Origin: a virus
Length of the DNA stretch: 64,000 nucleotides
Strand: one strand, 5' to 3'
IMG/VR virus record: IMGVR_UViG_3300045988_129382
Location: 1-64,000 of that record
The notes beneath the pieces were generated by a model. It saw only the letters and a program-made list of their open reading frames with translations, had not been told where the DNA came from and did no database searches. Of the stretch, positions 6,445 to 59,124 are shown one piece after another (the first letter of the stretch is position 1; every line of letters begins with the position of its first letter). The position numbers and the translations under genes are program-made.

Positions 6445-6458
6445 GGTGGTAACTTATT

Positions 6459-6692
6459 ATGAATTTAGTTGATGGTAATAAAGTTGTTGTGATTAAAGAT
6501 AGAGGATTTACATTGAAGGCTATTTCAGATATTTATATCTTTGATGATATGTTATATGTTCACGGTTTTAATGGTGATATAGCTAAAATAAAATTAGATA
6601 AGATTTCTGATTTTAGGCTTTTTAAGGATGTAGTTGATGAAGTATTTGCATATCATCAGGCTTTAAATGGACTTGTAGCATGTGGGATGTAA
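6459..6692 (+). CDS. Hypothetical protein, 77 aa
   Basis: AAGGTGG SD upstream. Confidence 0.65.
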   Translation: MNLVDGNKVVVIKDRGFTLKAISDIYIFDDMLYVHGFNGDIAKIKLDKISDFRLFKDVVDEVFAYHQALNGLVACGM

Positions 6693-6889
6693 GTGTTGTG
6701 TATTACTTTATTTTCTTTAAATTAGCACTTGCAATGTTCCTTATGGGTGTTTTATTTGCTTTTCTTAGTTTGTTCTTTCCTTATTTTAGTAAGGGTGAGC
6801 ATATTATGGATGTTTTAGTTGGGTTTTCTTTGACTATTTCCTTATCACTTATTGTTGTGAGTGGTTGGTTGTGGGTTTTTGATATTTGA
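6680..6889 (+). CDS. Small membrane protein with two hydrophobic segments
   Basis: Hydrophobic stretches FIFFKLALAMFLMGVLFAFLSLFF and GFSLTISLSLIVVSGWLWVF. Confidence 0.5.
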   Translation: MWDVSVVYYFIFFKLALAMFLMGVLFAFLSLFFPYFSKGEHIMDVLVGFSLTISLSLIVVSGWLWVFDI

Positions 6890-6902
6890 TGGTGGTGTTA
6901 TA

Positions 6903-7091
6903 ATGGATTATTTCTTTTTCTTTAAAGTTTTTGTTGCATCCTTTGTTATGACTTTTATTTTGGTATTTAGTACGAGTAGCTGTGAACCTTTTTCTAGGAC
7001 TTATCGTGTTTACGATACTTTGTCATCGATTTTCTCTGGTATTGCAGTTATTTCTTTAATTATTGCTTTGATATTGTGGTTGTTTGATTAA
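6903..7091 (+). CDS. Small membrane protein; similar in architecture to 6680-6889
   Basis: ATG 6903 preceded by GGTGGTG; two hydrophobic segments; C-terminus LWLFD compares with WLWVFDI in the neighbour. Confidence 0.55.
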   Translation: MDYFFFFKVFVASFVMTFILVFSTSSCEPFSRTYRVYDTLSSIFSGIAVISLIIALILWLFD

Positions 7092-7123
7092 TTGAATTAA
7101 TTGTTCATGATAAATATAGTTCA

Positions 7124-7312
7124 TTGTATAATATTTTGAGTACCCTTAAAGATTCATTTCTTTGGAGTGTTTGTTATACAGTTTCAGATGGTATTATCTT
7201 GGTAGAGATTAAAGAAGTGTGCTCTGATGACACTACTATTTACATTCAATGTGTTTTAGAGGTTGTTGATATATCATCTAATCTTAAATCATTGTCAAAT
7301 TCAGATGGTTAG
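7124..7312 (+). CDS. Doubtful ORF, 62 aa
   Basis: Non-ATG start, no SD, and it overlaps a TATAAT box at 7127-7132. Confidence 0.25.
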   Translation: MYNILSTLKDSFLWSVCYTVSDGIILVEIKEVCSDDTTIYIQCVLEVVDISSNLKSLSNSDG

Positions 7313-7440
7313 ATGTCTTTTACGCTTTATAATACTACTTGTGTTCCTTTCTTGGTTAATTTTTTAGAAAAAAATTCTACAATCTGATTTTTGACGGATG
7401 TACTAATATATTACCTATTTTTAATTTCTAATTACAAAAC

Positions 7441-7470
7441 TTTACAACTTAATATGTGTAGTGTTATAAT
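7441..7470 (+). promoter_or_regulatory. Sigma-A-type promoter: TTTACA, 18-nt spacer, TATAAT
   Basis: CAAAACTTTACAACTTAATATGTGTAGTGTTATAAT. It is followed at once by a 10-bp hairpin at 7471-7496. Confidence 0.65.
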
Positions 7471-7517
7471 AAGCATGTAGATATTCCTACATGCTTATTT
7501 CTTTGTGAGGTGATATT

Positions 7518-12713: not shown

Positions 12714-12899
12714 GTGTCAGATGCATCTAAGCTTAGAGATACGATAGATGGCAGAATAGATAAGTATATCTATTCTTATGTTGGTGCATATTTCAATGAT
12801 GTTGATAATAACACATTACAGGATGATTTGTATAAAGAGTTGGTTTTAGACTTGAAAAGTATTATTGAGGAAGAATGTAATAGGATAGGTTTAAAGTAA
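12714..12899 (+). CDS. Hypothetical protein, 61 aa, GTG start
   Basis: GGTGGTGA SD upstream of the GTG. Confidence 0.55.
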   Translation: MSDASKLRDTIDGRIDKYIYSYVGAYFNDVDNNTLQDDLYKELVLDLKSIIEEECNRIGLK

Positions 12900-12914
12900 A
12901 GTGTTGTTTTTATT

Positions 12915-12932
12915 TATAATCTGTGGTACAAT
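12915..12932 (+). promoter_or_regulatory. Candidate -10 elements: TATAAT at 12915-12920 and an extended -10 TGgTACAAT at 12924-12932
   Basis: Read directly; no good -35 box. Confidence 0.4.
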
Positions 12933-12939
12933 TTATTTA

Positions 12940-13163
12940 CAGGGTTTGATAGTTTAATGAGTCTGAGTGATTATAAAAATTCTCTCTCAATCACTCTCAC
13001 ATAAGAAATAATCTCCGTAATTTCAATGGAAGTTTTTCTTCTATAGTTACTCAGACTCATTAAGCTATCAAATATCTGTAGTTAATGTTAAGCCACGTTG
13101 TTGCATAAATTTCTCCTTAAAAGCGACTCATATATTTCATCATGATTATATGAGTCGCTTTTT
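12940..13163 (+). ncRNA. Candidate structured RNA or attenuator leader of about 225 nt, lying directly upstream of the SNF2 gene
   Basis: A 26-bp stem pairs 12945-12970 with 13047-13072 (24 Watson-Crick pairs plus 2 G-U pairs that work only on the + strand). It encloses a 76-nt loop and ends in a 14-bp intrinsic terminator. Confidence 0.5.
13121..13163 (+). terminator. Intrinsic terminator
   Basis: Stem AAGCGACTCATATA / TATATGAGTCGCTT (14 bp) followed by TTTTT. Confidence 0.8.
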
Positions 13164-13173
13164 ATTTAGTTAA

Positions 13174-28537: not shown

Positions 28538-28543
28538 TTAATA

Positions 28544-28804
28544 ATGGTTAATGTACAAAAAGAGGCATTAGATATCACAAGGAAAGTATTACAGGATAGT
28601 TGTGGTTATACGAGTGATGTTGTTGCTGAGGATAAGATGTTTGTAGTGTGGTCATGCAAAACATTACAAAATTGGAAAGCTATTGTAGGTGGTACCGATA
28701 TTAAAGAACTAATTGAGGTAACATATAATGGTGATACAAAAGAAGCATATGTAGACGTGTATGATAAGAAATTAAATGTAGCTATTAAGTTAAATGGTGA
28801 GTAA
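28544..28804 (+). CDS. Hypothetical protein, 86 aa
   Basis: ORF track entry. Confidence 0.65.
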   Translation: MVNVQKEALDITRKVLQDSCGYTSDVVAEDKMFVVWSCKTLQNWKAIVGGTDIKELIEVTYNGDTKEAYVDVYDKKLNVAIKLNGE

Positions 28805-28808
28805 CATT

Positions 28809-28997
28809 ATGGAAGAGTTGAAACAAAATTTACTAGAAGAGTTCAACACATTAGAAGAGCGTATTCATAGTCTAATTGCGTTTTTAGATGAAAATAAAGA
28901 GCATGAGGATTATTATGTGTTGTGTAAACAGTTGACTGCTATGGTCGACTATCGTGAGTGTTTACATACACGTATTGTAAAATATAATATTGCGTAG
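28809..28997 (+). CDS. Hypothetical protein. Start moved to ATG 28809.
   Basis: GGTGAG SD 7 nt upstream of ATG 28809. Confidence 0.6.
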   Translation: MEELKQNLLEEFNTLEERIHSLIAFLDENKEHEDYYVLCKQLTAMVDYRECLHTRIVKYNIA

Positions 28998-29017
28998 GTG
29001 TATAAAAGTTTTTTATG

Positions 29018-29061
29018 GGGATAATGCAAATAACTAAGAAAGTTTGTATTATCTCTTTTTT
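29018..29061 (+). terminator. Intrinsic terminator
   Basis: 13-bp stem GGGATAATGCAAA / TTTGTATTATCTC with two G-U pairs, followed by TTTTTT. Confidence 0.7.
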
Positions 29062-29114
29062 ATTATATTTAGTATACTATATGTGTAATAGTGGTTCTTG
29101 TAAAGGAGATAAAA

Positions 29115-29147
29115 ATGAGTTCTAGGTATACTTTTGTATATTTATAA
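29115..29147 (+). CDS. Upstream mini-ORF encoding MSSRYTFVYL
   Basis: Strong SD AAAGGAGATAAAA. An identical peptide is encoded at 42376-42408, and the only difference between the two is a synonymous AGG/AGA change. Confidence 0.5.
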   Translation: MSSRYTFVYL

Positions 29148-29228
29148 CAGAATTTGAAGTATTTCCTTTGGGATATACACATAAGTATTCATTAAGTTGT
29201 TTGTTTTATTCATAAAGGAGATAAAAAA
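29115..29228 (+). promoter_or_regulatory. Copy 1 of a duplicated leader of about 113 nt, consisting of an upstream ORF, a hairpin and the SD of the downstream gene
   Basis: About 90 percent identical to 42376-42487. Hairpin arms are at 29128-29141 and 29173-29188. Confidence 0.6.
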
Positions 29229-35274: not shown

Positions 35275-35281
35275 GTGTGCT

Positions 35282-35509
35282 ATGGATGGTGTTAATGCTA
35301 TATTAAATTATGCATATGGTGTGTATTCTATACTAGGGATTTCATTATATGTATTCATTGTATTGTTGATAAGTGTTGTGAGTGGTATTAGTAAGTCATA
35401 TCAGTTAGATGAGTTTTGTAAAGTATATGCTAGGGTGTCTATACTGTTATCATTAGCATTTGTTGTTATCGTGTCTATTATTAATACCGTATCATTTATA
35501 TTAGAGTAG
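35282..35509 (+). CDS. Small membrane protein with two TM segments. Start moved to ATG 35282.
   Basis: AGGTG SD 5 nt upstream; hydrophobic segments. Confidence 0.6.
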   Translation: MDGVNAILNYAYGVYSILGISLYVFIVLLISVVSGISKSYQLDEFCKVYARVSILLSLAFVVIVSIINTVSFILE

Positions 35510-35526
35510 CATTATGGGGGGAGTGT

Positions 35527-35718
35527 ATGGACAGTATTTCTACAAGTGTATTAGATGTATTACAGCGTTTAGGGATTGAATATATCAGACGAGATGAAAG
35601 TAATAATTACTATATGGTAACAGATGGTGGTGAAAAGATTTCATGTGATGAATTCTTTAGGGTTGTTTGTATGCATGTGTTACAGGGTAGTGAAGAGATG
35701 TATGTAGATAAGAAATAG
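35527..35718 (+). CDS. Hypothetical protein, 63 aa
   Basis: GGGGGGAG SD upstream. Confidence 0.6.
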   Translation: MDSISTSVLDVLQRLGIEYIRRDESNNYYMVTDGGEKISCDEFFRVVCMHVLQGSEEMYVDKK

Positions 35719-35723
35719 TTTAA

Positions 35724-35762
35724 AGAGGTAGTTAAAAGAGGTAGTTAAAAGAGGTAGTTAAA
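35724..35762 (+). repeat. 13-bp unit AGAGGTAGTTAAA repeated three times in tandem; the last copy forms the left arm of the terminator
   Basis: Copies at 35724-35736, 35737-35749 and 35750-35762. Confidence 0.95.
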
Positions 35763-35777
35763 ACCTACCTCTTTTTT
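35750..35777 (+). terminator. Intrinsic terminator
   Basis: Stem AGAGGTAG / CTACCTCT followed by TTTTTT. Confidence 0.75.
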
Positions 35778-35786
35778 ATTTAATAC

Positions 35787-35815
35787 TTTACAATACTTTA
35801 CACCTATGTTATACT
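35787..35815 (+). promoter_or_regulatory. Sigma-A-type promoter: TTTACA, 17-nt spacer, TATACT
   Basis: Read directly. Confidence 0.65.
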
Positions 35816-35869
35816 ATATATGTACCAGTTAGGTAGTAAATATATTGTCTTTCAAAAGGAGAAACAAAA

Positions 35870-36049
35870 ATGGAAATGTTAAGTGGTTTACCTTGTATCT
35901 TAGTTATTGTATGGGGTTTAGCTTATGTGTGGTTTATTTCAAAAGGTTATAGACCTACTAAGTGGTATAAATTAATTGGTATCATTCTAGTAGTATTATC
36001 TCTATTAGATGTATTTGTTATCAATGCAGATTTATACCCTAAGTATTGA
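35870..36049 (+). CDS. Small membrane protein, 59 aa, below the track size cutoff
   Basis: AAAGGAGA SD; two hydrophobic segments. Confidence 0.5.
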   Translation: MEMLSGLPCILVIVWGLAYVWFISKGYRPTKWYKLIGIILVVLSLLDVFVINADLYPKY

Positions 36050-36081
36050 GTTACTTAGGGTATATCAGAAGGGGATATAAA

Positions 36082-36234
36082 ATGATTGTAGTAGCTTTCG
36101 TGGTAATTGTAGTTATGGTGTATGTAACTATGGTTGGTAGTAAAATTCATGAAGAGTGTGATAGATATGATTCTATTAAGACATATAACACTCTTAAAAA
36201 TGATAGAGAGTTTCTTAGAAAGATTGGGGGTTAA
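36082..36234 (+). CDS. Small membrane protein. Start moved to ATG 36082.
   Basis: AGAAGGGGA SD upstream; N-terminal TM segment. Confidence 0.5.
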   Translation: MIVVAFVVIVVMVYVTMVGSKIHEECDRYDSIKTYNTLKNDREFLRKIGG

Positions 36235-36236
36235 TT

Positions 36237-45169: not shown

Positions 45170-45213
45170 TATTGTAATGACAACTGAATAAGAGTATATA
45201 CTTTAGATAGTTT

Positions 45214-45251
45214 AGAGGTATGATGCGTTGACATCATACCTCTTATTTTTT
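45214..45251 (+). terminator. Intrinsic terminator
   Basis: 12-bp stem AGAGGTATGATG / CATCATACCTCT followed by a T-run. Confidence 0.8.
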
Positions 45252-45273
45252 CAAAAAAATAACTTAACAAAAC

Positions 45274-45302
45274 TTTACAACTTAGTATAGGTATGGTATA
45301 CT
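45274..45302 (+). promoter_or_regulatory. Sigma-A-type promoter: TTTACA, 17-nt spacer, TATACT
   Basis: Read directly. Confidence 0.65.
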
Positions 45303-45341
45303 ATAGGTGTGGTAAGGGTGATAATTAGAAGGAGTAATAAA

Positions 45342-45572
45342 ATGAAAAACTTTAAAATTTATGCAGTTAGTGGTGAGGATAATTCTAAATATGAAATTAC
45401 CCTAAACGAGTTAGTTGCTAAGGGTAATTATACTGAAGATGAAGTTTGTAAGTTACTTGATTATATCGAGTCAACTAAGTACAAAACTTTCAGATGGAAG
45501 TTAGTACATAAAAATTCAATTCATGCTATGGATGGTGATGGGATTCAACATTACTTAGTAGATTTAAAATAG
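45342..45572 (+). CDS. Hypothetical protein. Start moved to ATG 45342.
   Basis: AGAAGGAG SD upstream. Confidence 0.6.
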   Translation: MKNFKIYAVSGEDNSKYEITLNELVAKGNYTEDEVCKLLDYIESTKYKTFRWKLVHKNSIHAMDGDGIQHYLVDLK

Positions 45573-50392: not shown

Positions 50393-52177
50393 ATGGCTAC
50401 ACTAACAATGTTAAGTCCTGGTGTATACATGAATGAGGTTGACAAAAGTCAATATACTACAGACTCCTCTACTTGTATTATTGGTATGGTGGGTGGTGCT
50501 AGGTTCGGTCCAGTTGGTGTTCCTACACTTATCTCTTCACAACAAGAGTTGATTAAAACTTTTGGTGAGCCTGTTGAGGGTGAGTATGGTTTGTATAGTG
50601 CATTAATGGCACTAACACATGCCAGTCAAGTTATCTATACACGTGTTGTACGTGGTGGTACTAAAGCTACATCAGGTAAAATCGGTACTGATAAAGTTCT
50701 TTATCGTTCTGCTGTAATTGGTGAGGCTAGTAATGGTCTTAAAATCATTCAGTCTGCTTTGACTGGTGGTAAATTCAGTGTGACTATTAAAGATGCACAG
50801 GATGTAGAGAAAGAAAAGTTTGAAGATTTAACTTTGACTTCCTCAGAAGAAAACTTTGTAGAAGCTGTAATTAATGCTAAATCAAAATTGATTCGTGTTG
50901 AGTTACAATCTACAGGTGATGTATCTGCAAAAGAGTTTGTGTTGGGAGATGCTGTAAAAGGCGGAAACACTGGTTCTAATGCACATGCCGGTAAAAAGGG
51001 TACAAATAAAGTACTCTTAGAGTCAAAATACTTTGATTCTAAATTAAATGGGTGTTCTGCTATTTTCAGTGCTATTGATGAGTTTACTCAAACATTTAAT
51101 GTAAGCATTGTTGATGAAAATGGTAATGTTGTTGAGCAATTCAGTACATTATCTTTAGACCCTAAATCTCCACGATTTGTTGAGACTATTATTAATAATG
51201 GCTCTATTCGTGTTAATGCTAAAGTAGATACAGATACATCTGTTAACTATACTGAAGATACATTAATCTTTAGTGGTGGTGATGATGGTATCTTAGGCAT
51301 TACTGCTAGTGACATCATTGGTGATGTTTCTGGTGGTGGTTTACAAAGTTTCTCTAACCCAGAAACAGTTACTATCGATGTATTAACTGCTAGTGGTTGG
51401 AGTGATGCTAGTGTTATTAAGGCTGGTTTACATATTGTTGAAAACCGTGCTGATTCTATCTTTATCGTAGACCCACCATTCGGTATGGGTGTACAGGAGA
51501 TGGTTAATTGGTCAAATGGTAAGGGTTCATATACTAATCAAAATGGTCTTGATACTTCTTATGGTGCATTGTATTGGCCGTGGTTACAAATTAGCGATAG
51601 TTTCACTAATAAAAACATTTGGCTACCACCTAGTGGTTTCGTAGCTGGTCAGTATGCATATAATGATAAGGTAGGTTTCCCTTGGTTAGCACCTGCTGGC
51701 TTGAATCGTGGTAGGATTACTAAAGCTATTAATACAGAGTATTCACCTACACAAGGTGAACGTGATGCTTTGTATGGTCATAGGAATGTTGTAAACTGTA
51801 TCACAAACTTTATCGGTCAAGGTATTGTTATCTGGGGTAACAAAACACTTCAACGTCAACCAACTGCATTGGACAGGGTTAATGTTCGTAGGTTAATGAG
51901 TTTCTTAGAACGCAGCATTGCTATGAAGTCTAGGTACTTTGTATTCGAGCAAAACTATGATGCTACTTGGGAGCGTTGGAAAACTCTTATCGAGCCAGTT
52001 TTGATTAATGCTAAAAATAATGGTGGTTTATATGATTATAAAATTGTGTTGGAAGCTACAGCACAAGATTATGAAAACAACCGTATGCCTATCAGTATTT
52101 ACGTTAAACCAATTAAAGCCGCTGAGTTCATTAGTTTGACTTTCAACATAATGAATTATAGTGCTAGTTTTAACTAA
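50393..52177 (+). CDS. Contractile tail sheath protein
   Basis: N-terminal LSPGVYMNEVD and C-terminal WGNKTLQ...ALDRVNVRRL are typical of the sheath family; 594 aa. Confidence 0.9.
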   Translation: MATLTMLSPGVYMNEVDKSQYTTDSSTCIIGMVGGARFGPVGVPTLISSQQELIKTFGEPVEGEYGLYSALMALTHASQVIYTRVVRGGTKATSGKIGTDKVLYRSAVIGEASNGLKIIQSALTGGKFSVTIKDAQDVEKEKFEDLTLTSSEENFVEAVINAKSKLIRVELQSTGDVSAKEFVLGDAVKGGNTGSNAHAGKKGTNKVLLESKYFDSKLNGCSAIFSAIDEFTQTFNVSIVDENGNVVEQFSTLSLDPKSPRFVETIINNGSIRVNAKVDTDTSVNYTEDTLIFSGGDDGILGITASDIIGDVSGGGLQSFSNPETVTIDVLTASGWSDASVIKAGLHIVENRADSIFIVDPPFGMGVQEMVNWSNGKGSYTNQNGLDTSYGALYWPWLQISDSFTNKNIWLPPSGFVAGQYAYNDKVGFPWLAPAGLNRGRITKAINTEYSPTQGERDALYGHRNVVNCITNFIGQGIVIWGNKTLQRQPTALDRVNVRRLMSFLERSIAMKSRYFVFEQNYDATWERWKTLIEPVLINAKNNGGLYDYKIVLEATAQDYENNRMPISIYVKPIKAAEFISLTFNIMNYSASFN

Positions 52178-52192
52178 TAAGGGGGATATGAT

Positions 52193-52753
52193 ATGAGTCA
52201 ATTAAATGCCGCTTTCATGTCCATGGACTCAACATATGAGGTTCAACGTACCAATAACTTTAGGTTTATTGTAGATTTAAGTGAGTTCTCTAATAATACA
52301 TCATCTTCAAGTGGTGATATTATTGAGTTGGCTTGTGATAGCACAGGTCTACCTACTGTATCTAATGACCCTATTGAGTTGGATTATGGTAACTCACAAA
52401 TCAAGGTAGCTGGTAAAGCAACTACTGATGATATTACAGTTGCTGTAAAAGACTTTATCGAACCTGACGTAGAGAATATTCTATGGCAATGGAGGATGAA
52501 AGTTTATAATCCTAAGACTGGTAAAGTTGGTTGGGCGAATAACTATAAACGTACATGTATGATTGTTCAATATGGTCCGAATGGTGAAGTATTGAGGAAA
52601 TGGCAATGTGATGGTTGTTGGCCGACTAGTTTAGACTTAGGTGAATTAGACTACTCTAGTGGTGATAAGAAACAAATTAGTATGAACTTGTCTGTAGATA
52701 CTGCATATCTTGTACGTGATGGACAAAATACGCATATTTATGGTACAGACTAA
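52193..52753 (+). CDS. Tail tube protein, T4 gp19 / PBSX XkdM-like
   Basis: NNFRFIVDL...GLPTVSNDPIELDYGNSQIKVAGK; sits directly after the sheath gene. Confidence 0.8.
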   Translation: MSQLNAAFMSMDSTYEVQRTNNFRFIVDLSEFSNNTSSSSGDIIELACDSTGLPTVSNDPIELDYGNSQIKVAGKATTDDITVAVKDFIEPDVENILWQWRMKVYNPKTGKVGWANNYKRTCMIVQYGPNGEVLRKWQCDGCWPTSLDLGELDYSSGDKKQISMNLSVDTAYLVRDGQNTHIYGTD

Positions 52754-52767
52754 TTTAGTTAGTTTTA

Positions 52768-52798
52768 TAGGACGTAGTGTATGCTACGTCCTATTTTT
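52768..52798 (+). terminator. Intrinsic terminator after the tube gene
   Basis: Stem TAGGACGTAG / CTACGTCCTA followed by TTTTT. Confidence 0.8.
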
Positions 52799-52887
52799 GT
52801 GTTATAATGTTTGTGTGTGGTTTCATACTTATCTTTATGTGTTCTCATATTAAGGAGTTTATGAGGTTAAGGTGGATTCATTGGTTA

Positions 52888-52916
52888 TTGACATAATTAA
52901 TTACATGTACTATAAT
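52888..52916 (+). promoter_or_regulatory. Perfect consensus promoter: TTGACA, 17-nt spacer, TATAAT
   Basis: Read directly; the only exact consensus promoter noticed in the window. Confidence 0.7.
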
Positions 52917-52922
52917 TAATTA

Positions 52923-52985
52923 TGTTGATTAACAGCCATGGTCAATTAAAAAAGCTGACATCAGAATATGGTGTTAGCTTTTTTA
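52923..52985 (+). ncRNA. Candidate short RNA of about 60 nt, running from the consensus promoter to a bidirectional-looking terminator
   Basis: Terminator stem AGCTGACA / TGTTAGCT at 52953-52979, flanked by an A-run and a T-run. Confidence 0.4.
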
Positions 52986-53023
52986 ATTTATATACAATTT
53001 GGGGATGGTTTTTCTATCTGGGG

Positions 53024-53052
53024 TTTACATATTGTTTTTCTTGTGGTATATT
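53024..53052 (+). promoter_or_regulatory. Sigma-A-type promoter: TTTACA, 17-nt spacer, TATATT
   Basis: Read directly. Confidence 0.6.
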
Positions 53053-53058
53053 GTATGT

Positions 53059-53305
53059 AGTAGATGAGAGTGGTTACTCATCTATTATATGTAGGTGATT
53101 GCGTTACATCTACATATACCTCCCTTTTTACTGTTACGTTTGTTTATTTCCTTTCGTAGCGTAACAGTAAATTTACATATTGTCTTTCTTATTGGAAAAA
53201 TTAGGTTTTTCATGATAAGTATGCTTTGTTGCATATATTTTTCTCCGTTAGAGTGTTACATTGATTACTTCGGCTCTTATCAATGTAACACTCTTTTTCT
53301 TTTTG
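53059..53305 (+). ncRNA. Candidate multi-hairpin RNA of about 247 nt
   Basis: Hairpins pair 53061-53068 with 53077-53084, 53087-53097 with 53107-53117, and 53129-53138 with 53160-53169. A 16-bp terminator pairs 53250-53265 with 53279-53294, has a CTTCGG loop, and is followed by a T-run. A single-stranded ACCTCCC sits at 53118-53124. Confidence 0.5.
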
Positions 53306-53584
53306 TATAGCAGTTTAATAAAAATTTAATTGTTTATATTAAGTTGTAGTGTTTTTGGTGATAGAGTTTTATATATAAGTTTCATGTGGTTGAGGTATTA
53401 TTCTTGTTGTTTATATCTTAACTTCATCTTATATACATAATCAGAGGGGTTTAGAGTAGATAGAATAGCATCACAATCTACTTTTACATTAGATGGTTAT
53501 ATGTAAATTTCACAGTACTTTTCGATAGAAATACTAAAGCTAGTTGCAGATAATCATGTTTTCATGTAGTAGAGGTGGTGTTTT

Positions 53585-54058
53585 ATGAATTTAATTGAGA
53601 TGTTATCTGTGTTGGGTATGAACATAAGTATAGGTGATGTTTCAATAGCAACATTACTTTTACTGACAATCATACAAATATCTCCTATTGAGTTCAATCC
53701 TTTATCTATTATATTGTCTATTATAGGTAGAGAATTGAATAAAGAAGTAATTGATAGGGTTGAGAAATTGGAAAAGTTAGGGGAGTCTAACAGTAGGGGA
53801 ATAGACAAACTATCTTATGAGGTTTCTGAAACTAGGGCAATTAACGCAAGGTCTAGATTATTGGAATTTAATGATGATTTACTGCATAATGTAGCTAAAT
53901 CTAAGGAAAGTTTTGACCATATAATGACAGACATTACGTATTATGAGCATTTCTGTAGAAAGCATGCAGATTTTCATAATCATGTTTCAGATATGGCTAT
54001 TAAAAATATAGAGGACATATATCGTAAGCGATTGTCAAGGAATGATTTCTTAAAATAG
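53585..54058 (+). CDS. Membrane-associated protein, 157 aa, unknown function
   Basis: GAGGTGG SD upstream; hydrophobic N-terminal third and charged C-terminal two thirds. Confidence 0.6.
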   Translation: MNLIEMLSVLGMNISIGDVSIATLLLLTIIQISPIEFNPLSIILSIIGRELNKEVIDRVEKLEKLGESNSRGIDKLSYEVSETRAINARSRLLEFNDDLLHNVAKSKESFDHIMTDITYYEHFCRKHADFHNHVSDMAIKNIEDIYRKRLSRNDFLK

Positions 54059-54081
54059 ATTAATGGTTATATTGAATATAG

Positions 54082-54117
54082 TAGAGATAGTAATACTTTT
54101 TACTATCTCTATTTTTG
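54082..54117 (+). terminator. Intrinsic terminator
   Basis: 12-bp stem TAGAGATAGTAA / TTACTATCTCTA followed by TTTTT. Confidence 0.75.
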
Positions 54118-54212
54118 TGTTAATTATTAAATTGTTATATAGTATATATACAGTTAGGTAGTTTCATTACAATTTAGATAGTTTTTTATTATACAAAAGA
54201 CGAGGTTTTAAA

Positions 54213-55160
54213 GTGGAAGATAATAAATTTAATTTAGGTGCAGATGTTTTTGGTGATACTACATCTGACGTTACATCTACTGTTGTAGAAAAAGATATTA
54301 CTTCATATTCTGTTGAAAGTATTCCTACAAAAGAAGAGGTCAAAGTGGAAGATACAAAGAAAGAAGATTTGATTGCTAAAGAATTAGATAGGGAAAATAC
54401 AGAGGCTGGCTCTAAGAAAACTAAGTTAGCTTATGAATCTACTGTATTGTTGCCATCTAAAGGCATTTTATATAAAGAGGATAATATCCCTGCTAATATT
54501 ACATTACGTGGTATGACTACAAAAGATGAGAAAATCATGTATGCTAGTCAGGGTGCTGATGTGTTTAAGAAGATTTTGAGGAACTGTATTGTTTCTCCTG
54601 AGAACATTGATATTAATCGTTTGATTAGTGCAGATGAGATGTTCTTAATCTTGCAATTACGTATGGTTACATTCGGTGATAAATATAAAGTGCGTTCTAC
54701 TTGTCCTCATTGTGGTTCTGTAGATGAGCATGAGATTAGCTTATCTGATTTTGATATTATGTATTTAGATGATAATTTCACAGAACCGATTAATGTTGAG
54801 TTGCCTGCTAGTGGTGATACTTTGTCATTACGTTTACTTAGAAATTCAGATACAGAATATGTAGAGAAATATGCACGTAGGTTCGCAAAACAGTTTAATC
54901 AAAACTATAAAGAAGTAATGTATATTTGTAGGATGGCAAAATACATTACAGCTATTAATGGCAAACCTGTTGATTTTGTAGATGCACGTAGTTATGTAGA
55001 GAATATGGTATCTTTGGATAGTGCTAAAATGCAGACAGTTATTAATAGTATTATTGTTGGTGTAGATACAATCGTAGACCATGAGTGTACTTCTTGTGGT
55101 GAGTTATATGATTTTGCTATGCCGATTACTAGCGAGTTCTTTCGTCCCACAATTAAGTGA
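54213..55160 (+). CDS. Tail assembly chaperone candidate with a zinc ribbon, GTG start
   Basis: Lies between the tube and tape measure genes; CPHCG...CTSCG; GAGGT SD upstream. Confidence 0.5.
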   Translation: MEDNKFNLGADVFGDTTSDVTSTVVEKDITSYSVESIPTKEEVKVEDTKKEDLIAKELDRENTEAGSKKTKLAYESTVLLPSKGILYKEDNIPANITLRGMTTKDEKIMYASQGADVFKKILRNCIVSPENIDINRLISADEMFLILQLRMVTFGDKYKVRSTCPHCGSVDEHEISLSDFDIMYLDDNFTEPINVELPASGDTLSLRLLRNSDTEYVEKYARRFAKQFNQNYKEVMYICRMAKYITAINGKPVDFVDARSYVENMVSLDSAKMQTVINSIIVGVDTIVDHECTSCGELYDFAMPITSEFFRPTIK

Positions 55161-55449: not shown

Positions 55450-58400
55450 ATGGGTGAGTTACAGGATAGAAAACAACTGAATAAGCGTATACAACAGATA
55501 GAAGAAAAAGAAGCTAAACGTGTTGAGAAGAACATAGCTAAACGTGAAAAGCGTTTTGCTAAGATGTTAGATTCTCAGATGACGATGTTAGAGTCATTCT
55601 ATAGTACTTCAAGTAAAACAGCAAAAGGTATGCTTAAAGATAGCATGGATGGTCAACAGGCTATCTTAGAGGATAGTTTGGCAGATATGAAGCGTGAGTT
55701 TAATCTGTATGCTAAGTATATGGATAATACAACACGTAAGTATTATAAAGGTATGATTTCAGTTGCAGATGAAAGTCTGACAACTATGAAAGAGACTGTT
55801 GCTAAGCGTTTTGGTGAGATATCAGATGAATTTGATGAAGAGATGGTTGGTATGACAGCATCTTTCACAGATAGGATTAAGCGTTTCTCTAAAGGCATTA
55901 GGGACGCCGCTGTGGCATTGGAATTAACTGATATGGCTGATAGTGTTAAAAGCAGTTTGACTGATATCACTGACTCATTTATTGATAATTTCCGTGAGAG
56001 AAGTGCTAAGTTAAATGGCAATATCACTAAAGGTGATTATCAAAAGATGATTGGTAGTGTGGTAGATTCATCATATTCTATGGGTAGGAATGAGGCATCT
56101 GAGTTAGTTAATGGTATTATGGATGAGATGGGTATGAAGACTGCTAAACAGTTAGACCCTTATCTTAAAGAGGTTGCAAGTTTACATACTGCAATAGACG
56201 CCAATATTAGTGATTTATCGAGCATTATTAAAATGGATATTAATAATGGTGGTAAGGGTGAGTTACTCAAAGAGATGTCAAATATAGCTACAGGGTTAGG
56301 TTCTGATAAGGATTTAACTGTAGATAGTAATGCTATGTTATCTTCAATGAATGAGCATATTGAGGACTTATATGGTCTTTCTAAGAAGGATTCTGTTAAG
56401 TTTAAGGGCATGACTAAATCTCTTGCAATAATGGAAGGTATTCAACAACAGCAATATAACAAGGGTGTTGAAGAAGCCGGTGGTAAGATTGTAGAGTGGT
56501 CTAAGATGTCTGTACCTGAACTTCTTAAAGATGACGACTTCATGAATTTCATGGCTAGGTCTGGTATGAGTGCCGAGGAGTTCAGAGGTGCTATTGATAG
56601 TGGTCAGTCAGATATTGTTATGAAACAAATGCAAGATTTATTCATAGCTAATAAGGATGACCAATATGCTTTAAATCAGTTAAGGGAGTCTATGGGGTTC
56701 AGTTCTGATGCTGTGGCACAGATGTTCGCTGATGCTGATTCTTTGACAGGTGATTTGAAAAAAGTTACAGATAACATCAATAAGAACTCTAATTTAAATG
56801 GTTCTAATGCTGAAAACATGGCTGGGTATGCTAGTGGGCCGATAGAGAAGATAGGGAATTGGCTTTCTGATTCATTTCCTGTTAGAATGGTATCAGATTT
56901 CTTTGGTGAGTTAGATATTAAAGCCGCCAATATGGCTAATTACGCCATCATAGCCTATACAATTTCTGATAGGTGGAGTGATGTAAAAGACATGTTGAAG
57001 ATGGTTTCAACTCCATTCAAGAGTTTTGGTAAGTTCTTGTCTGGTGGTGGATTTAAAACATTATTCAGTTCTAAGGGTGCATTAAGTCAAGGTATTGAGA
57101 ATGGATTAAGGACTTTATTTACAGGTAAGGGTTCTTTCATATCTACTATTATTGATAAGTTCAAGAGTGTATTCTCATGGGTTGGTAAGGTCTTTTATGC
57201 TAATGCTCCTGATAAGATGATAAAGGCATTTTCTAAGGTAGGTTCTAAGTTAGGTGGAGTATTCTCTAGTTTCTTTGGAAAGATATTTGATAAGATTGGT
57301 AGCACAGGGATTGGAAAGTTAGCATCTAAGTTATTCAGTGGTGGTATATTTAAGGTTCTTGGTAAAGTTATACCTATTGTTGGTGGTTTCTTTGATGTAA
57401 TATTAGATTTCTTTAGTGGGATTGGTAAAGCAGATGAGTGGTTTGGTAAAGACCATAATTTACTACAAACTGTTATGAGTGGTCTAATTGGTGCTATATT
57501 CGGTACTGGTAGTGGTATAAAGTGTGAAAACTTTATGGACGATTTATTTACTGTAATGGGTGGTGCATTAAAAGGTGGTGCCGCTGGTTTTGTAGTTGGT
57601 GGGCCGTTAGGTGCTTTAGTTGGTGCTATTTTAGGTGCTATAGCTAATGCTATTGGTGGTGATAGGATAGCTAGTGCATTTAACTCTTTAACAGAATATA
57701 TTTCTGCTATACCTGATAAGATTATTGGTGTATTCACATCAGCATTTGACGCCGTACATGATTTGATTGCAGATTCATGGATAGGTAGTTTGTTAGGTAT
57801 GACTAAAAATAATCCTGATGCAAGTACAGGTGATAACACTAACACATTGATGAAGACTATGGCTTTAGCAACTCCTTTTGGAATGGTTTCTAGTCTTATA
57901 GGTTCTTTTGGTTCTCATGCTGATGGTTTATCGGAAGTTCCATATGATAATTATCCTGCTTTCTTGCACAAAGGTGAAGCAGTTTTAACTTCTCAACAAG
58001 CTGGTGCTGTTAGGTCTGATGGTGGTATACCTATCACAGGTGGTAATAGTTTAATTGATGCTTTGGGCATTGATGGTGAAGTTGGTCAAGGTAGGTCTGT
58101 TCTAGAGAGAGTGTTTAGAGGTGTATTTGGTATTACAGGTCAAGATACTTATGGTGAGGGTGGCTTATTTGGTAATATATTTAAGCATCTACTCAACTTG
58201 GGTAGTGGTGGTATCTTAGGTAACTTGATGGGTGATAGTGGTTCTATCTTCGATAAATTGAAAGAATTCTTAAAAGGTGGGGGTTCTTCATCTAGTGGTG
58301 GTTCTTCTGGTGGTGGAAAGCCAGCTAACATGTCTACAGGTAATGGTGATGGCAAAAAGATTTGGGATTTCTTAGCTAATGCTGGTTATTCTGCTGAGGG

Positions 58401-59124
58401 TATTGCTGGTATTCTAGGTAACTTGCATGAAGAGAGTGGCTTTAGAAGTGGTGCTATTGAAAATGATGGTGGTACTACTAATGAGGACTTAGTAAAACAG
58501 ATTACAGCTAGTAAGGATGCTTTTCTTGCCGATTCACGTGGTTTTGGTTTAGCACAGTGGACTGATAGTGGTCGTAAGAGTGCTTTGTGGGATTATGCAC
58601 AGTCTAAGGGTACTAGTGTTGCTGACTTCCAAACTCAGTTAGAATTCTTGTTAAAAGAGTTACAAGAAAGTTATTCTGATACATCAAATGCATTAAAGGG
58701 AAATATTACTGTTGACCAAGCATCTGAAATATTTGGTACAAACTATGAGGGTTTTGGTGCTAATTCTGCCGCTAGTCGATTAGAAAAATCTAAAAAATTC
58801 TATGAAGAAAACACTAAAGGGACACCTCAGTATGCACAAGGTACACCGTGGGTGCCAGATACACAAGTAGCGTTAATTCATGAGGGTGAGATGGTAGTAC
58901 CAGCTGATAAGAATCCTTTAAGTTCAGATAGCACTTCTAATGCTGTTGGATTACCTACAGATAATGGTGGTTCTGATGATATTGTTGATGCTATTAAATG
59001 GCAAGTATCTAGGTTAGAAAGCAAGTTAGATGCATTAATTAATGTTGTAGCTAGTAGTAATTCTAATTATAGGGGAAATGGTTTTGGTTCTGATTCTTCC
59101 GTTAATAATTTGTTGAAAGTATAG
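55450..59124 (+). CDS. Tail tape measure protein with a C-terminal lysozyme-like domain
   Basis: 1224 aa. It has a coiled-coil N-terminus and Gly-rich hydrophobic central repeats. GILGNLHEESGF...GFGLAQWT matches the phage tail lysozyme pattern. Confidence 0.85.
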   Translation: MGELQDRKQLNKRIQQIEEKEAKRVEKNIAKREKRFAKMLDSQMTMLESFYSTSSKTAKGMLKDSMDGQQAILEDSLADMKREFNLYAKYMDNTTRKYYKGMISVADESLTTMKETVAKRFGEISDEFDEEMVGMTASFTDRIKRFSKGIRDAAVALELTDMADSVKSSLTDITDSFIDNFRERSAKLNGNITKGDYQKMIGSVVDSSYSMGRNEASELVNGIMDEMGMKTAKQLDPYLKEVASLHTAIDANISDLSSIIKMDINNGGKGELLKEMSNIATGLGSDKDLTVDSNAMLSSMNEHIEDLYGLSKKDSVKFKGMTKSLAIMEGIQQQQYNKGVEEAGGKIVEWSKMSVPELLKDDDFMNFMARSGMSAEEFRGAIDSGQSDIVMKQMQDLFIANKDDQYALNQLRESMGFSSDAVAQMFADADSLTGDLKKVTDNINKNSNLNGSNAENMAGYASGPIEKIGNWLSDSFPVRMVSDFFGELDIKAANMANYAIIAYTISDRWSDVKDMLKMVSTPFKSFGKFLSGGGFKTLFSSKGALSQGIENGLRTLFTGKGSFISTIIDKFKSVFSWVGKVFYANAPDKMIKAFSKVGSKLGGVFSSFFGKIFDKIGSTGIGKLASKLFSGGIFKVLGKVIPIVGGFFDVILDFFSGIGKADEWFGKDHNLLQTVMSGLIGAIFGTGSGIKCENFMDDLFTVMGGALKGGAAGFVVGGPLGALVGAILGAIANAIGGDRIASAFNSLTEYISAIPDKIIGVFTSAFDAVHDLIADSWIGSLLGMTKNNPDASTGDNTNTLMKTMALATPFGMVSSLIGSFGSHADGLSEVPYDNYPAFLHKGEAVLTSQQAGAVRSDGGIPITGGNSLIDALGIDGEVGQGRSVLERVFRGVFGITGQDTYGEGGLFGNIFKHLLNLGSGGILGNLMGDSGSIFDKLKEFLKGGGSSSSGGSSGGGKPANMSTGNGDGKKIWDFLANAGYSAEGIAGILGNLHEESGFRSGAIENDGGTTNEDLVKQITASKDAFLADSRGFGLAQWTDSGRKSALWDYAQSKGTSVADFQTQLEFLLKELQESYSDTSNALKGNITVDQASEIFGTNYEGFGANSAASRLEKSKKFYEENTKGTPQYAQGTPWVPDTQVALIHEGEMVVPADKNPLSSDSTSNAVGLPTDNGGSDDIVDAIKWQVSRLESKLDALINVVASSNSNYRGNGFGSDSSVNNLLKV

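What the first reader, a model, noticed from the sequence alone, without database searches (positions are those of the whole stretch)
52754..53584. 830-bp coding gap inside the tail module, packed with promoter/terminator units and a multi-hairpin RNA of about 247 nt
In PBSX- and T4-like tail modules the tube gene is normally followed directly by the chaperone genes. Here it is followed by 830 bp that contain no credible ORF. The region holds, in order: (a) the tube terminator at 52768-52798; (b) an extended -10 element at 52800-52808 and an 11-codon mini-ORF at about 52860-52895 with an AAGGAG SD; (c) the only perfect TTGACA-N17-TATAAT promoter noticed in the window (52888-52916), which drives about 60 nt into a bidirectional-looking terminator; (d) a second promoter (53024-53052) driving a transcript of about 247 nt. 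That transcript has three well-formed hairpins, an exposed ACCTCCC anti-SD-like tract at 53118-53124, and a 16-bp terminator with a CTTCGG loop and a long T-run. Part of the promoter sequence (TTTACATATTGT) is duplicated at about 53172. This looks like an inserted regulatory-RNA island or moron in a structural operon. The next gene, 53585-54058, encodes a membrane-associated protein and could be its cargo or its target.
Basis: partly seen in the sequence, partly recalled or inferred. Interest (0 to 1): 0.75.

Follow-up and report, generated by a model that had tools for sequence, protein, structure and literature searches.

The report
Structured small-RNA genes in phage tail module
The ORF-free 830 bp after the tail-tube gene of this ~200-kb human-associated phage is a swappable accessory island: it carries a new ~245-nt folded RNA gene with its own promoter and terminator, next to a slot that holds an anti-immunity (Sequestin) gene in about half of the related contigs.

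Summary

Comparison with 51 related contigs divides the gap into modules:
- The tube terminator.
- A variable slot behind a conserved extended -10. It holds the anti-Thoeris sponge Sequestin in 25 loci, the window's 11-codon filler in 19, and deletions in 8.
- A conserved TTGACW promoter, a ~65-nt RNA and a terminator.
- A conserved promoter (GGGGTTTACA-N17-TGGTATATT) driving a ~245-nt RNA.
- A probable T4-like late promoter (TATATATA, 53370) and a ~205-nt leader for the 157-aa gene.

The 245-nt RNA has five conserved hairpins. Its folding z-score is -8.1, 99% of pair cells are paired, and 27 of 56 pairs show changes on both sides. Its loops are invariant, and 77 G-U cells against 1 A-C cell put it on the + strand. 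It matches no Rfam family and was found only in this phage lineage.

Its function is inferred. I think it is most likely a trans-acting regulator that uses CU-rich, anti-Shine-Dalgarno-like single strands. A protein decoy or anti-defence RNA is the main rival. The idea that the 157-aa gene is its cargo or target is not supported. I class it as a new member of a known kind (phage sRNA/moron), of moderate interest.

The parts
52767..52799 (+). Intrinsic terminator of the sheath-tube late transcript
   Evidence: 12-bp stem plus T-run. The stem covaries in relatives.
52800..52808 (+). P1, extended -10 TGTTATAAT: promoter of the variable cassette slot (drives Sequestin in relatives)
   Evidence: Read. 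Kept as TGTTATAAT/TGCTATAAT in the Sequestin-type and window-type loci; altered in the L043 type (TGTTATAC) and absent in L035.
52809..52887 (+). Window-type filler that replaces the Sequestin ORF. It contains SD AAGGAG (52852-52857) and an 11-codon ORF, MRLRWIHWLLT (52861-52896).
   Evidence: 19 of 52 loci have this type, 25 have Sequestin and 8 have deletions. No similarity to Sequestin (tblastn, E <= 10).
52888..52916 (+). P2, perfect TTGACA-N17-TATAAT. It overlaps an 11-bp inverted repeat, CATAATTAATT/AATTAATTATG.
   Evidence: A homologous TTGAC[AT] element is present in every cassette type aligned (L053 excepted).
52922..52992 (+). Short (~65-nt) RNA unit: conserved 5' part (GUUGAU..CAGCCAUGGU) plus terminator hairpin 52944-52988
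   Evidence: Terminator stems differ between cassette types with compensation (GCTGACA/TGTTAGC, GAGCGACA/TGTCGCTC, GGGGATTGA/TCAATCCCC). Rfam gives only Thr_leader at 40 bits, below the gathering score of 55.
53020..53052 (+). P3, GGGGTTTACA-N17-TGGTATATT: promoter of the structured RNA
   Evidence: Conserved in all haplotypes, including the ~70% group and L053. It belongs to the same TTTACA-N16-18 class (most with TG before the -10) seen at 2923, 5580, 7441, 28961, 35787 and 45274. The same motif precedes ordinary genes in unrelated IMG/VR phages.
53058..53305 (+). ~245-nt structured noncoding RNA. H1 53060-53085 (loop GAGUGGUU, 53068-53075). H2 53086-53118 (loop UGCGUUA, 53100-53106). CCUCCC 53119-53124. 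H3 53127-53171 (loop UUUCCUUUCG, 53147-53156). Invariant UCUUAUUGGA 53187-53196. H5 53220-53235. UCUCC 53241-53245. Terminator H6 53250-53294 (loop AUUACUUCGGCUCUUAU, 53264-53280) plus T-run 53295-53305.
   Evidence: z = -8.1. 99.8% of cells paired with 10 double-change pairs on the MAFFT alignment. 99.0% paired with 27 of 56 double-change pairs on 25 sequences. 77 G-U against 1 A-C cell. No Rfam match. One copy per phage.
53367..53377 (+). Probable late promoter TTTTATATATA (T4 TATAAATA-like) for the 157-aa gene
   Evidence: TATATATA occurs 4 times against 18.3 +/- 4.4 expected. All four copies are intergenic and upstream of structural-module genes (46345, 50259, 53370, 54143), three of them shortly after a terminator. 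It is invariant in all haplotypes aligned.
53378..53584 (+). ~205-nt leader of the 157-aa gene, not significantly structured
   Evidence: z = -1.0. Conserved blocks are visible.
52988..52996 (.). TTATATACA motif, after which a TnpB insertion sequence sits in L004
53429..53438 (.). TTATATACAT motif, after which a TnpB insertion sequence sits in L014 and L023
53585..54058 (+). 157-aa gene (hydrophobic N-terminus, helical C-terminal part), function unknown. A neighbour of the RNA, not shown to be linked to it.
   Evidence: phrog_37604, unknown function. No Pfam family. AF2 pLDDT 69.8, all-helical, with no Foldseek PDB hit better than E = 2.3.
54080..54113 (+). Terminator of the 157-aa unit, followed by the next TATATATA (54143) and the baseplate-hub gene

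Best explanation
The gap is an accessory island wedged between the tube terminator and the late promoter of the next tail gene. It is built from autonomous promoter-to-terminator units of the host sigma-70 type.

The largest unit (P3 53020-53052, RNA 53058-53305) is a stand-alone gene for a ~245-nt noncoding RNA read from the + strand. The RNA has five hairpins whose stems drift and covary while the loops and several single-stranded CU-rich tracts stay fixed. Those tracts are CCUCCC, UUUCCUUUCG, UCUUUCUUAUUGG and UUUCUCC.

I think it most likely acts in trans as a base-pairing regulator. The CU-rich tracts resemble the 3' end of 16S rRNA and would pair with G-rich Shine-Dalgarno regions of phage or host mRNAs, blocking or tuning translation. 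The best candidate site inside the window is the start region of the neighbouring tube gene.

Shown here: the anatomy, the conservation, the structure, the strand, the absence of coding potential and the restriction to one phage lineage. Inferred: that the promoters fire, that a discrete RNA accumulates, and the mode of action.
For: - Structure: z = -8.1. On the unfitted alignment A2, 99.8% of pair cells are paired, 10 pairs change on both sides, and 0 of 500 shuffles reach this. With the ~70%-identity group added (A4), 99.0% are paired, 27 of 56 pairs change on both sides, and slid controls reach only 18-54% pairing.
- Strand: 77 G-U cells against 1 A-C cell, giving 99.0% pairing on + and 93.0% on -.
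- Conserved parts: the loops and UCUUAUUGGA are invariant. Promoter and terminator are conserved.
- Evolution: the RNA diverges faster than its flanks (84% against 97-99% in L005; 70% against 85-94% in L043) yet keeps its fold.
- Non-coding: no conserved ORF, and indels of 2, 3, 7 and 8 nt.
- Phage SDs are G-rich, for example AAGGAGAT, AGGGGGAT and GAGGTGGTG.
- Candidate target: RNA 53176-53204 against the tube start region 52164-52195 (SD plus AUG) gives -24.4 kcal/mol, versus a background of -9.7 +/- 2.9. It stays at -17 to -26 in the 16 haplotype combinations tested. Two of the three TIR substitutions in L035 lie in the duplex, and both are A-to-G opposite U.
- L053 carries a different ~150-nt RNA behind the same promoter, and it also displays UUCCUUUC and CUCCUUUCU.
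- From my own knowledge, not tested here: C/U-rich loop motifs that target SDs are the usual design of Firmicutes sRNAs such as S. aureus RNAIII and RsaE.
Against: - There are no transcript data. The promoters and terminators are consensus predictions.
- All sequences come from one phage lineage with about 4-5 RNA alleles, so the covariation rests on few independent events. A4 was also fitted to the model.
- The tube-TIR duplex is only the third best of ~6400 + strand windows (13730: -25.5; 620: -24.8). It shows no clean compensatory change and is weak in the L053 type (-11 kcal/mol).
- CU-rich tracts will match almost any SD, and the region is T-rich overall (AT skew -0.31).
- CCUCCC is not kept in the ~70% group.
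- The invariant non-CU loops (GAGUGGUU, UGCGUUA, the UUCG-capped terminator loop) are not explained by SD pairing and point rather to a protein partner.
- L091 and L053 lack this RNA, so it is dispensable.
Confidence: 0.4

Rival explanations
1. The RNA is a protein-binding decoy or anti-defence RNA. Expressed early from a host-type promoter, it presents invariant loops on drifting stems and so titrates a host or phage protein, such as an immune sensor, nuclease or RNA-binding regulator.
For: - It sits directly beside the slot that holds Sequestin, an experimentally shown anti-Thoeris 3'cADPR sponge.
- H1 and H2 look like tandem copies of one ~30-nt hairpin with loop A[G/U]UG(C)GUUA, and the loops are invariant while the stems covary.
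- Several RNA alleles circulate on near-identical backbones, and the RNA evolves faster than its flanks, as expected in an arms race.
- In L053 the slot between Sequestin and P3 holds another structured, ORF-free segment (z = -4.8).
Against: The case rests on guilt by association only. No partner protein is known. There is no resemblance to CRISPR repeats, no tandem ToxI-like repeats, and no Rfam family. The host is unknown.
Confidence: 0.25
2. The element acts in cis. H1-H2 would work right after the promoter as a put-like processive antitermination signal, or the whole array would serve as a transcriptional insulator or attenuator that sets how much transcription passes from the abundant sheath-tube unit into the low-copy tail genes.
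For: - Two hairpins start 2 nt after the predicted start site.
- Three terminators lie in series between the tube gene and the next late promoter.
- The orientation is the same as the tail genes.
- A large drop in expression after the tube gene is biologically expected.
Against: - The downstream genes have their own probable late promoters at 53370 and 54143.
- No alternative antiterminator pairing is conserved between alleles. The H3/terminator similarity exists only in the window type (my reading of the alignment).
- Simple insulation does not need invariant loops or the ~190 nt of structure that precede the terminator.
- Relatives without the element (L091, LIS04) have the same gene order.
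Confidence: 0.15
3. The element works at the DNA level. The hairpins would be single-strand DNA signals of an IS200/IS605-type element (a non-autonomous remnant) or a recombination hot spot, not an RNA.
For: TnpB insertion sequences land in this very gap, right after TTATATACA motifs that flank the RNA gene. Such elements are common in these phages.
Against: - BLAST and model R1 find no similarity between the RNA and the insertion sequences in L004, L014 and L023, and there is no RAGATH-18 hit in the gap.
- A conserved promoter and a T-run terminator frame the element.
- There is a strong G-U against A-C asymmetry. G-T pairs are also tolerated in ssDNA, so this last point is weaker.
Confidence: 0.05
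4. The interval is a missed or decayed protein-coding gene.
For: Relatives do encode a protein (Sequestin) in the first ~230 bp. The window has a 71-aa ORF at 53095-53310.
Against: - The 71-aa ORF is absent or frame-broken in other alleles, and L003 and L043 have no ORF of 40 aa or more.
- The indels are not multiples of 3.
- The substitution pattern follows base pairs, not codons.
- The window's filler has no similarity to Sequestin.
Confidence: 0.03

Closest known systems
Morons of tailed phages (autonomous promoter-gene-terminator units inserted between structural genes, as described for lambdoid phages and HK97; from my own knowledge)
   Same: The units are inserted between two late structural genes. 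Each has its own sigma-70-type promoter and intrinsic terminator. They are present or absent among close relatives, and one neighbouring cargo (Sequestin) benefits the phage against host immunity.
   Different: Two of the units encode RNAs rather than proteins. The host phage is a ~200-kb virulent-looking myovirus, not a temperate lambdoid: the RNA-specific three-loop pattern found no phage copy among 185,579 species genomes.
C/U-rich anti-Shine-Dalgarno sRNAs of Firmicutes (S. aureus RNAIII, RsaE/RoxS; from my own knowledge)
   Same: A multi-hairpin RNA of 100-500 nt with several unpaired C/U-rich motifs complementary to SD sequences, ending in an intrinsic terminator.
   Different: No sequence or Rfam relationship. 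The RNA is phage-encoded, its targets are unknown, and it has additional invariant loops that are not CU-rich.
HK022 put RNA (two stem-loops that make RNA polymerase terminator-resistant; from my own knowledge)
   Same: Tandem hairpins lie directly downstream of a promoter and upstream of strong terminators, in a phage.
   Different: No sequence similarity was tested or is known. The downstream genes have their own promoters, and the RNA ends in a conserved terminator of its own.
Threonine operon leader, Rfam RF00506
   Same: A hairpin followed by an A-run/T-run terminator, preceded by a tiny ORF. cmscan gives 40 bits at 52876-52987.
   Different: The score is below the gathering score of 55. 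The peptide MRLRWIHWLLT has a single Thr and a single Ile and no run of them. There is no thr operon downstream, and the hit concerns the short unit, not the 245-nt RNA.
TnpB guide RNAs (omega/reRNA; RAGATH-18-derived RNAs of IS607 TnpB, PMC11061315)
   Same: Structured RNAs of similar size occur in the same phages, and TnpB elements insert in this gap.
   Different: No TnpB gene adjoins the RNA in the window. There is no RAGATH-18 hit in the gap. Model R1 does not match the insertion sequences. The RNA ends in a terminator, not a guide.

Membership tests
Any Rfam 15 family | Covariance-model score at or above the family's gathering score | tested here: not met
   Window scan at gathering threshold: 0 hits. 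At E <= 10 on 52000-55000 nothing overlaps H1-H6 (53058-53294); only a chance-level miRNA-model hit (mir-7360, 20.4 bits, E = 2.1) touches the T-run at 53299-53345. Relatives L005, L043, L053, L004 and L014 have none in the gap.
Thr operon leader (RF00506) | Score of at least 55 bits | tested here: not met
   40.0 bits at 52876-52987; 35-41 bits in relatives.
Thr operon leader (RF00506) | Leader peptide rich in Thr/Ile codons, upstream of thrABC | tested here: not met
   The peptide is MRLRWIHWLLT. Downstream lie a promoter and an RNA gene, not thr genes.
Phage moron | Own promoter and own terminator | tested here: met
   P2 and P3 match the consensus, each unit ends in a hairpin plus T-run, and all are conserved. 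Their activity was not measured.
Phage moron | Inserted between genes that are adjacent in relatives; variable presence | tested here: met
   LIS04 has tube then hub after 70 nt. L091 has a 415-nt gap without the RNA. The cassette slot has three states.
Phage moron | Expressed independently of the late operon (for example from the prophage, or early) | not testable with these tools
   Needs transcriptomics.
Trans-acting base-pairing sRNA | Discrete noncoding transcript with conserved structure | tested here: inconclusive
   Structure, strand and lack of coding potential are shown. The transcript itself was not observed.
Trans-acting base-pairing sRNA | Conserved unpaired seed with conserved complementarity to a target | tested here: inconclusive
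   Invariant UCUUAUUGGA and CU-rich tracts exist. The tube-TIR duplex is -24.4 kcal/mol but only the third best in the window, and it is weak in L053.
TnpB omega/reRNA or IS200/IS605 end | Adjacent to or overlapping a tnpB 3' end; similarity to element ends | tested here: not met
   There is no tnpB in the window's gap. No similarity to the insertion sequences in L004, L014 or L023.
Riboswitch / T-box / attenuator leader | Regulated ORF shortly downstream and a conserved alternative antiterminator pairing | tested here: not met
   The next ORF is 280 nt away, behind its own promoter. No conserved alternative pairing is visible between alleles. No Rfam riboswitch or T-box hit.
tRNA / tmRNA | ARAGORN detection | tested here: not met
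   0 genes in the window.
Sequestin (PF21825) gene | Encodes a PF21825 protein | tested here: not met
   The window's gap has no tblastn hit to Sequestin at E <= 10. Relatives do: L005 6669-6902 scores 67.8 bits.

The most novel reading that the evidence does not exclude
The 245-nt RNA would be an RNA-based counter-defence factor: a decoy whose invariant loops capture a host immune sensor or effector. It would share an exchangeable anti-defence island with the Sequestin sponge, in an abundant human-associated phage. In the L053 type, other structured, ORF-free segments (230 nt and 150 nt) occupy the same region. This would make the tube-hub junction a hot spot for RNA as well as protein anti-immunity cargo.
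Probability: 0.15. Interest if true: 0.85.

Novelty: new member of a known kind. Interest (0 to 1): 0.5.

Why it matters
Phage-encoded small RNAs are poorly catalogued, and few have comparative support. Here a ~200-kb phage lineage is very common in human metagenomes: the exact tube protein is indexed in 2109 blocks of the collection. It carries a covariation-supported RNA gene that is absent from Rfam, in several alleles, beside a proven anti-Thoeris gene slot. That gives a concrete and cheap target for Northern blots, dRNA-seq and deletion. It also gives a test of whether anti-defence islands carry RNA cargo, and a usable map of this phage's promoter classes (TTTACA-N17-TGnTATAAT host-type; TATATATA late-type).

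Tried and rejected
- GenBank phage DNA search, near and distant modes: no match.
- Rfam: only a sub-threshold Thr_leader hit.
- tRNA/tmRNA search: none.
- Three-loop pattern scans. Genome collection: 1 hit, in a Rhodobacterales MAG, which I take to be a chance match. Metagenomes: 15 hits, all the same phage and the same alleles.
- The 17-nt terminator-loop pattern found one extra hit, inside an ORF of a 1.15-Mb viral contig. I take it as chance.
- The promoter pattern GGGGTTTACA-N14-TGKTATATT picked up many unrelated phages in which it precedes ordinary genes. None of them carries the RNA.
- RNAalifold on the raw MAFFT alignment proposed a long-range H1/UCUUUCUUAUU pairing. I rejected it as an artefact of misaligning the ~70% group, because single-sequence folds of L043, L005 and L035 all give the same local hairpins.
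- The tube-TIR target is suggestive but not unique and not kept in L053.
- 157-aa protein: no Pfam family, an unknown PHROG, no PDB sequence hit and no fold match.
- Group I intron search around the TnpB insertions in structural genes: nothing found.
- Decayed-Sequestin idea for the window's filler: no similarity.
Full report
SETTING. In the 50-60 kb part of the window every credible gene is on the + strand, and all ORFs of 90 aa or more that are not nested inside a longer + strand ORF are on +. The layout is sheath 50393-52177, tube 52193-52753 (PF06841), the gap, a 157-aa ORF 53585-54058, a baseplate-hub gene 54213-55160 (PF12322, phrog_150), and the tape measure 55450-59124. The exact tube protein is indexed in 2109 blocks of public assemblies, mostly on 100-213 kb contigs from human metagenome studies. 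The nearest isolates are distant: Streptococcus phage vB_SagM-GXN1 (sheath 41% identical), Bacillus SP-15 and Listeria LIS04. No GenBank phage matches at the DNA level.

There is no ORF longer than 71 aa in 52754-53584. No ORF other than Sequestin is shared between alleles, and two alleles have none of 40 aa or more. The 12-mer repeat is weak on its own, with 4 exact copies in the window.

COMPARATIVE ANATOMY. I collected 51 related loci whose tube protein is 99-100% identical and whose 157-aa protein is 79-100% identical. The gap varies in length: 757-778, 831-841, 919, 994-1038 and 2112-2432 bp. Alignment resolves it into five modules.
(1) The tube terminator, which carries compensatory changes.
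(2) P1 (TGTTATAAT) and a variable slot. 25 loci carry a 78-86 aa PF21825 gene. This is Sequestin, shown experimentally to sponge 3'cADPR and defeat type I Thoeris (bioRxiv 10.1101/2025.07.12.664507). 19 loci, including the window, carry an unrelated ~79-nt filler with the 11-codon ORF. 8 loci carry deletions.
(3) P2, a ~65-nt RNA and a terminator, homologous in every cassette type aligned, with terminator stems that differ but stay paired.
(4) P3 and the ~245-nt RNA.
(5) TTTTATATATA plus a ~205-nt leader and the 157-aa gene.
TnpB insertion sequences sit in the gap in L004, L014 and L023, each right after a TTATATACA motif.

THE 245-NT RNA IS A REAL STRUCTURED ELEMENT ON THE + STRAND.
- The window copy folds at -71.8 kcal/mol, z = -8.1. 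Alleles L005, L035 and L043 fold into the same series of local hairpins, with z between -5.2 and -7.6.
- On an unfitted MAFFT alignment of 20 sequences, 99.8% of 1061 pair cells are standard pairs and 10 pairs change on both sides. Slid controls pair at 18-54%.
- I built covariance model R1 and used it to add the ~70%-identity alleles, which score 92-113 bits over the full length. On that alignment 99.0% of cells are paired, 27 of 56 pairs change on both sides, and 0 of 500 shuffles reach this. This alignment is fitted to the model, and the sequences represent only about 4-5 alleles, so the number of independent events is small.
- 77 G-U cells against 1 A-C cell give 99.0% pairing on the + strand and 93.0% on the - strand.
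- The invariant parts are loops and single strands: GAGUGGU, UGCGUUA, UUUCG within UUUCCUUUCG, UCUUAUUGGA, and the terminator loop AUUACUU(C/U)GGCUCUUAU, with C replaced by U in L012 only.
- The RNA diverges faster than its flanks: 84% against 97-99% in L005, and 70% against 85-94% in L043. Distinct alleles therefore sit on near-identical backbones.

DISTRIBUTION. There is one copy per phage and no paralogue in the window. L091 lacks it; there the 157-aa protein is 60% identical and the gap is 415 nt. GXN1, LIS04 and the DnaB-linked 157-aa homologues also lack it. The L053 type has the same P3 promoter, but this is followed by a different ~150-nt RNA whose 3' part resembles the window RNA's 3' half (AUAUAUUUUUUGCUCCUUUCUUGCAG against AUAUAUUUUUCUCCGUUAG). 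It has a further structured 230-nt segment upstream, z = -4.8. The three-loop pattern gave 1 hit, which I take to be chance, in 185,579 species genomes. It gave 15 metagenome hits, all the same lineage.

PROMOTER CLASSES.
- P3 belongs to a recurrent TTTACA-N16-18 class, most members with TG before the -10 (2923, 5580, 7441, 28961, 35787, 45274, 53024). The GGGGTTTACA...TGKTATATT form precedes ordinary genes in many unrelated phages. This fits a host-RNA-polymerase promoter.
- TATATATA is 4.5-fold depleted: 4 copies against 18.3 +/- 4.4 expected. All four copies are intergenic and upstream of genes of the structural module, namely the 46400 gene, the sheath gene, the 157-aa gene and the hub gene. 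Three of the four follow a terminator within about 30 nt. I read this as a T4-like late promoter; that is an inference.
- On this reading, the late transcripts are sheath-tube, then the 157-aa gene, then hub onward. The RNA units lie between two late units and use the other promoter class.

MECHANISM. Shown: a promoter-to-terminator, noncoding, structured unit on the + strand. Inferred: it acts in trans. The single strands are CU-rich and resemble the anti-Shine-Dalgarno end of 16S rRNA, and the phage's SDs are G-rich. Within the window, 53176-53204 can pair with the tube SD and AUG (52164-52195) at -24.4 kcal/mol. That is z of about -5 against background, but only the third best site in 64 kb. 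The duplex persists at -17 to -26 kcal/mol across alleles, with wobble-compatible changes, but it is weak in the L053 type. I therefore rate the tube gene as a candidate target only.

The non-CU invariant loops, the tandem look of H1 and H2, the allelic diversity and the Sequestin neighbour keep a protein-decoy or anti-defence role as the main rival. Cis antitermination or insulation, a DNA-level or IS-related role, and a decayed gene are less likely, for the reasons given under rivals.

THE 157-AA GENE. It has no Pfam family and belongs to a PHROG of unknown function. It is predicted all-helical (pLDDT 69.8) with a hydrophobic N-terminus and has no structural match. It has its own probable late promoter and occurs without the RNA elsewhere.

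VERDICT. The finding is real, and the 'RNA island / moron' reading is largely right. Three corrections apply. Part of the interval is an emptied anti-defence gene slot. The RNA has five conserved hairpins rather than three. The next gene is an independent late unit. The RNA is a new family with no Rfam match, but of a known kind. Interest is moderate: 0.5.

Noticed in passing
L043:56-1392; L010:984-2216; L009:2215-3318: TnpB genes interrupt structural genes in relatives. In L043 a TnpB sits inside the sheath gene and is followed by a RAGATH-18 RNA (69 bits); such RNAs are the known guides of IS607 TnpB (PMC11061315). In L010 a TnpB splits the 206-aa gene into 97 + 122 aa. In L009 a TnpB splits the 253-aa gene. 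Rfam found no group I intron in L009, L010, L021 or L023, so how these phages tolerate the insertions is unexplained.
   Followed up: partly
window 46345, 50259, 53370, 54143: TATATATA is strongly depleted in the window (4 copies against 18.3 expected). It occurs only in intergenic DNA upstream of genes of the structural module, three of the four copies shortly after a terminator. It is probably the phage's late promoter, analogous to T4 TATAAATA.
   Followed up: partly
window 52988-52996 and 53429-53438; L004, L014, L023: The TnpB insertion sequences in the gap all sit immediately after TTATATACA(T/A). Only three TTATATAC sites exist in the window, so this may be the elements' target-adjacent motif.
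   Followed up: partly
L053:2322-2560 and 2601-2760 (identical copies of the second segment in L100, L120, L124 and L129): In the most divergent relative, the region between Sequestin and the next late unit holds two other ORF-free structured segments. The first is 230 nt with z = -4.8 and its own terminator. The second is a ~150-nt RNA behind the same P3 promoter. Neither matches Rfam.
   Followed up: partly
window gaps 6445-7517, 28538-29228, 35275-36236, 45170-45571: Other ORF-poor gaps carry the same TTTACA-N17-TGnTATAAT promoter class (at 7441, 28961, 35787 and 45274), two of them right after terminators. They may hold further small-RNA or moron units.
   Followed up: no
window 13071-13161: Weak match of model R1 (21.7 bits, model positions 147-243) in the 12714-13173 gap. 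It is probably only a similar hairpin-plus-terminator.
   Followed up: no
window 52899-52931: An 11-bp perfect inverted repeat, CATAATTAATT-N11-AATTAATTATG, brackets the -10 of the perfect promoter P2. It is present only in the window-type cassette. It could be an operator, or an RNA hairpin of the P1 transcript.
   Followed up: no
L093:5001-5528; L094-L097: Homologues of the 157-aa protein at ~40% identity sit directly after a DnaB-like helicase gene in other large phages, not in the tail module. The gene has therefore moved between modules.
   Followed up: partly
L001 (Streptococcus phage GXN1) 9822-10560 and 11177-11827: In the nearest isolate, small ORFs (124, 137, 108 and 88 aa) flank the tube gene on both sides. 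The sheath-tube-hub junctions therefore act as accessory-gene hot spots in this wider group as well.
   Followed up: no
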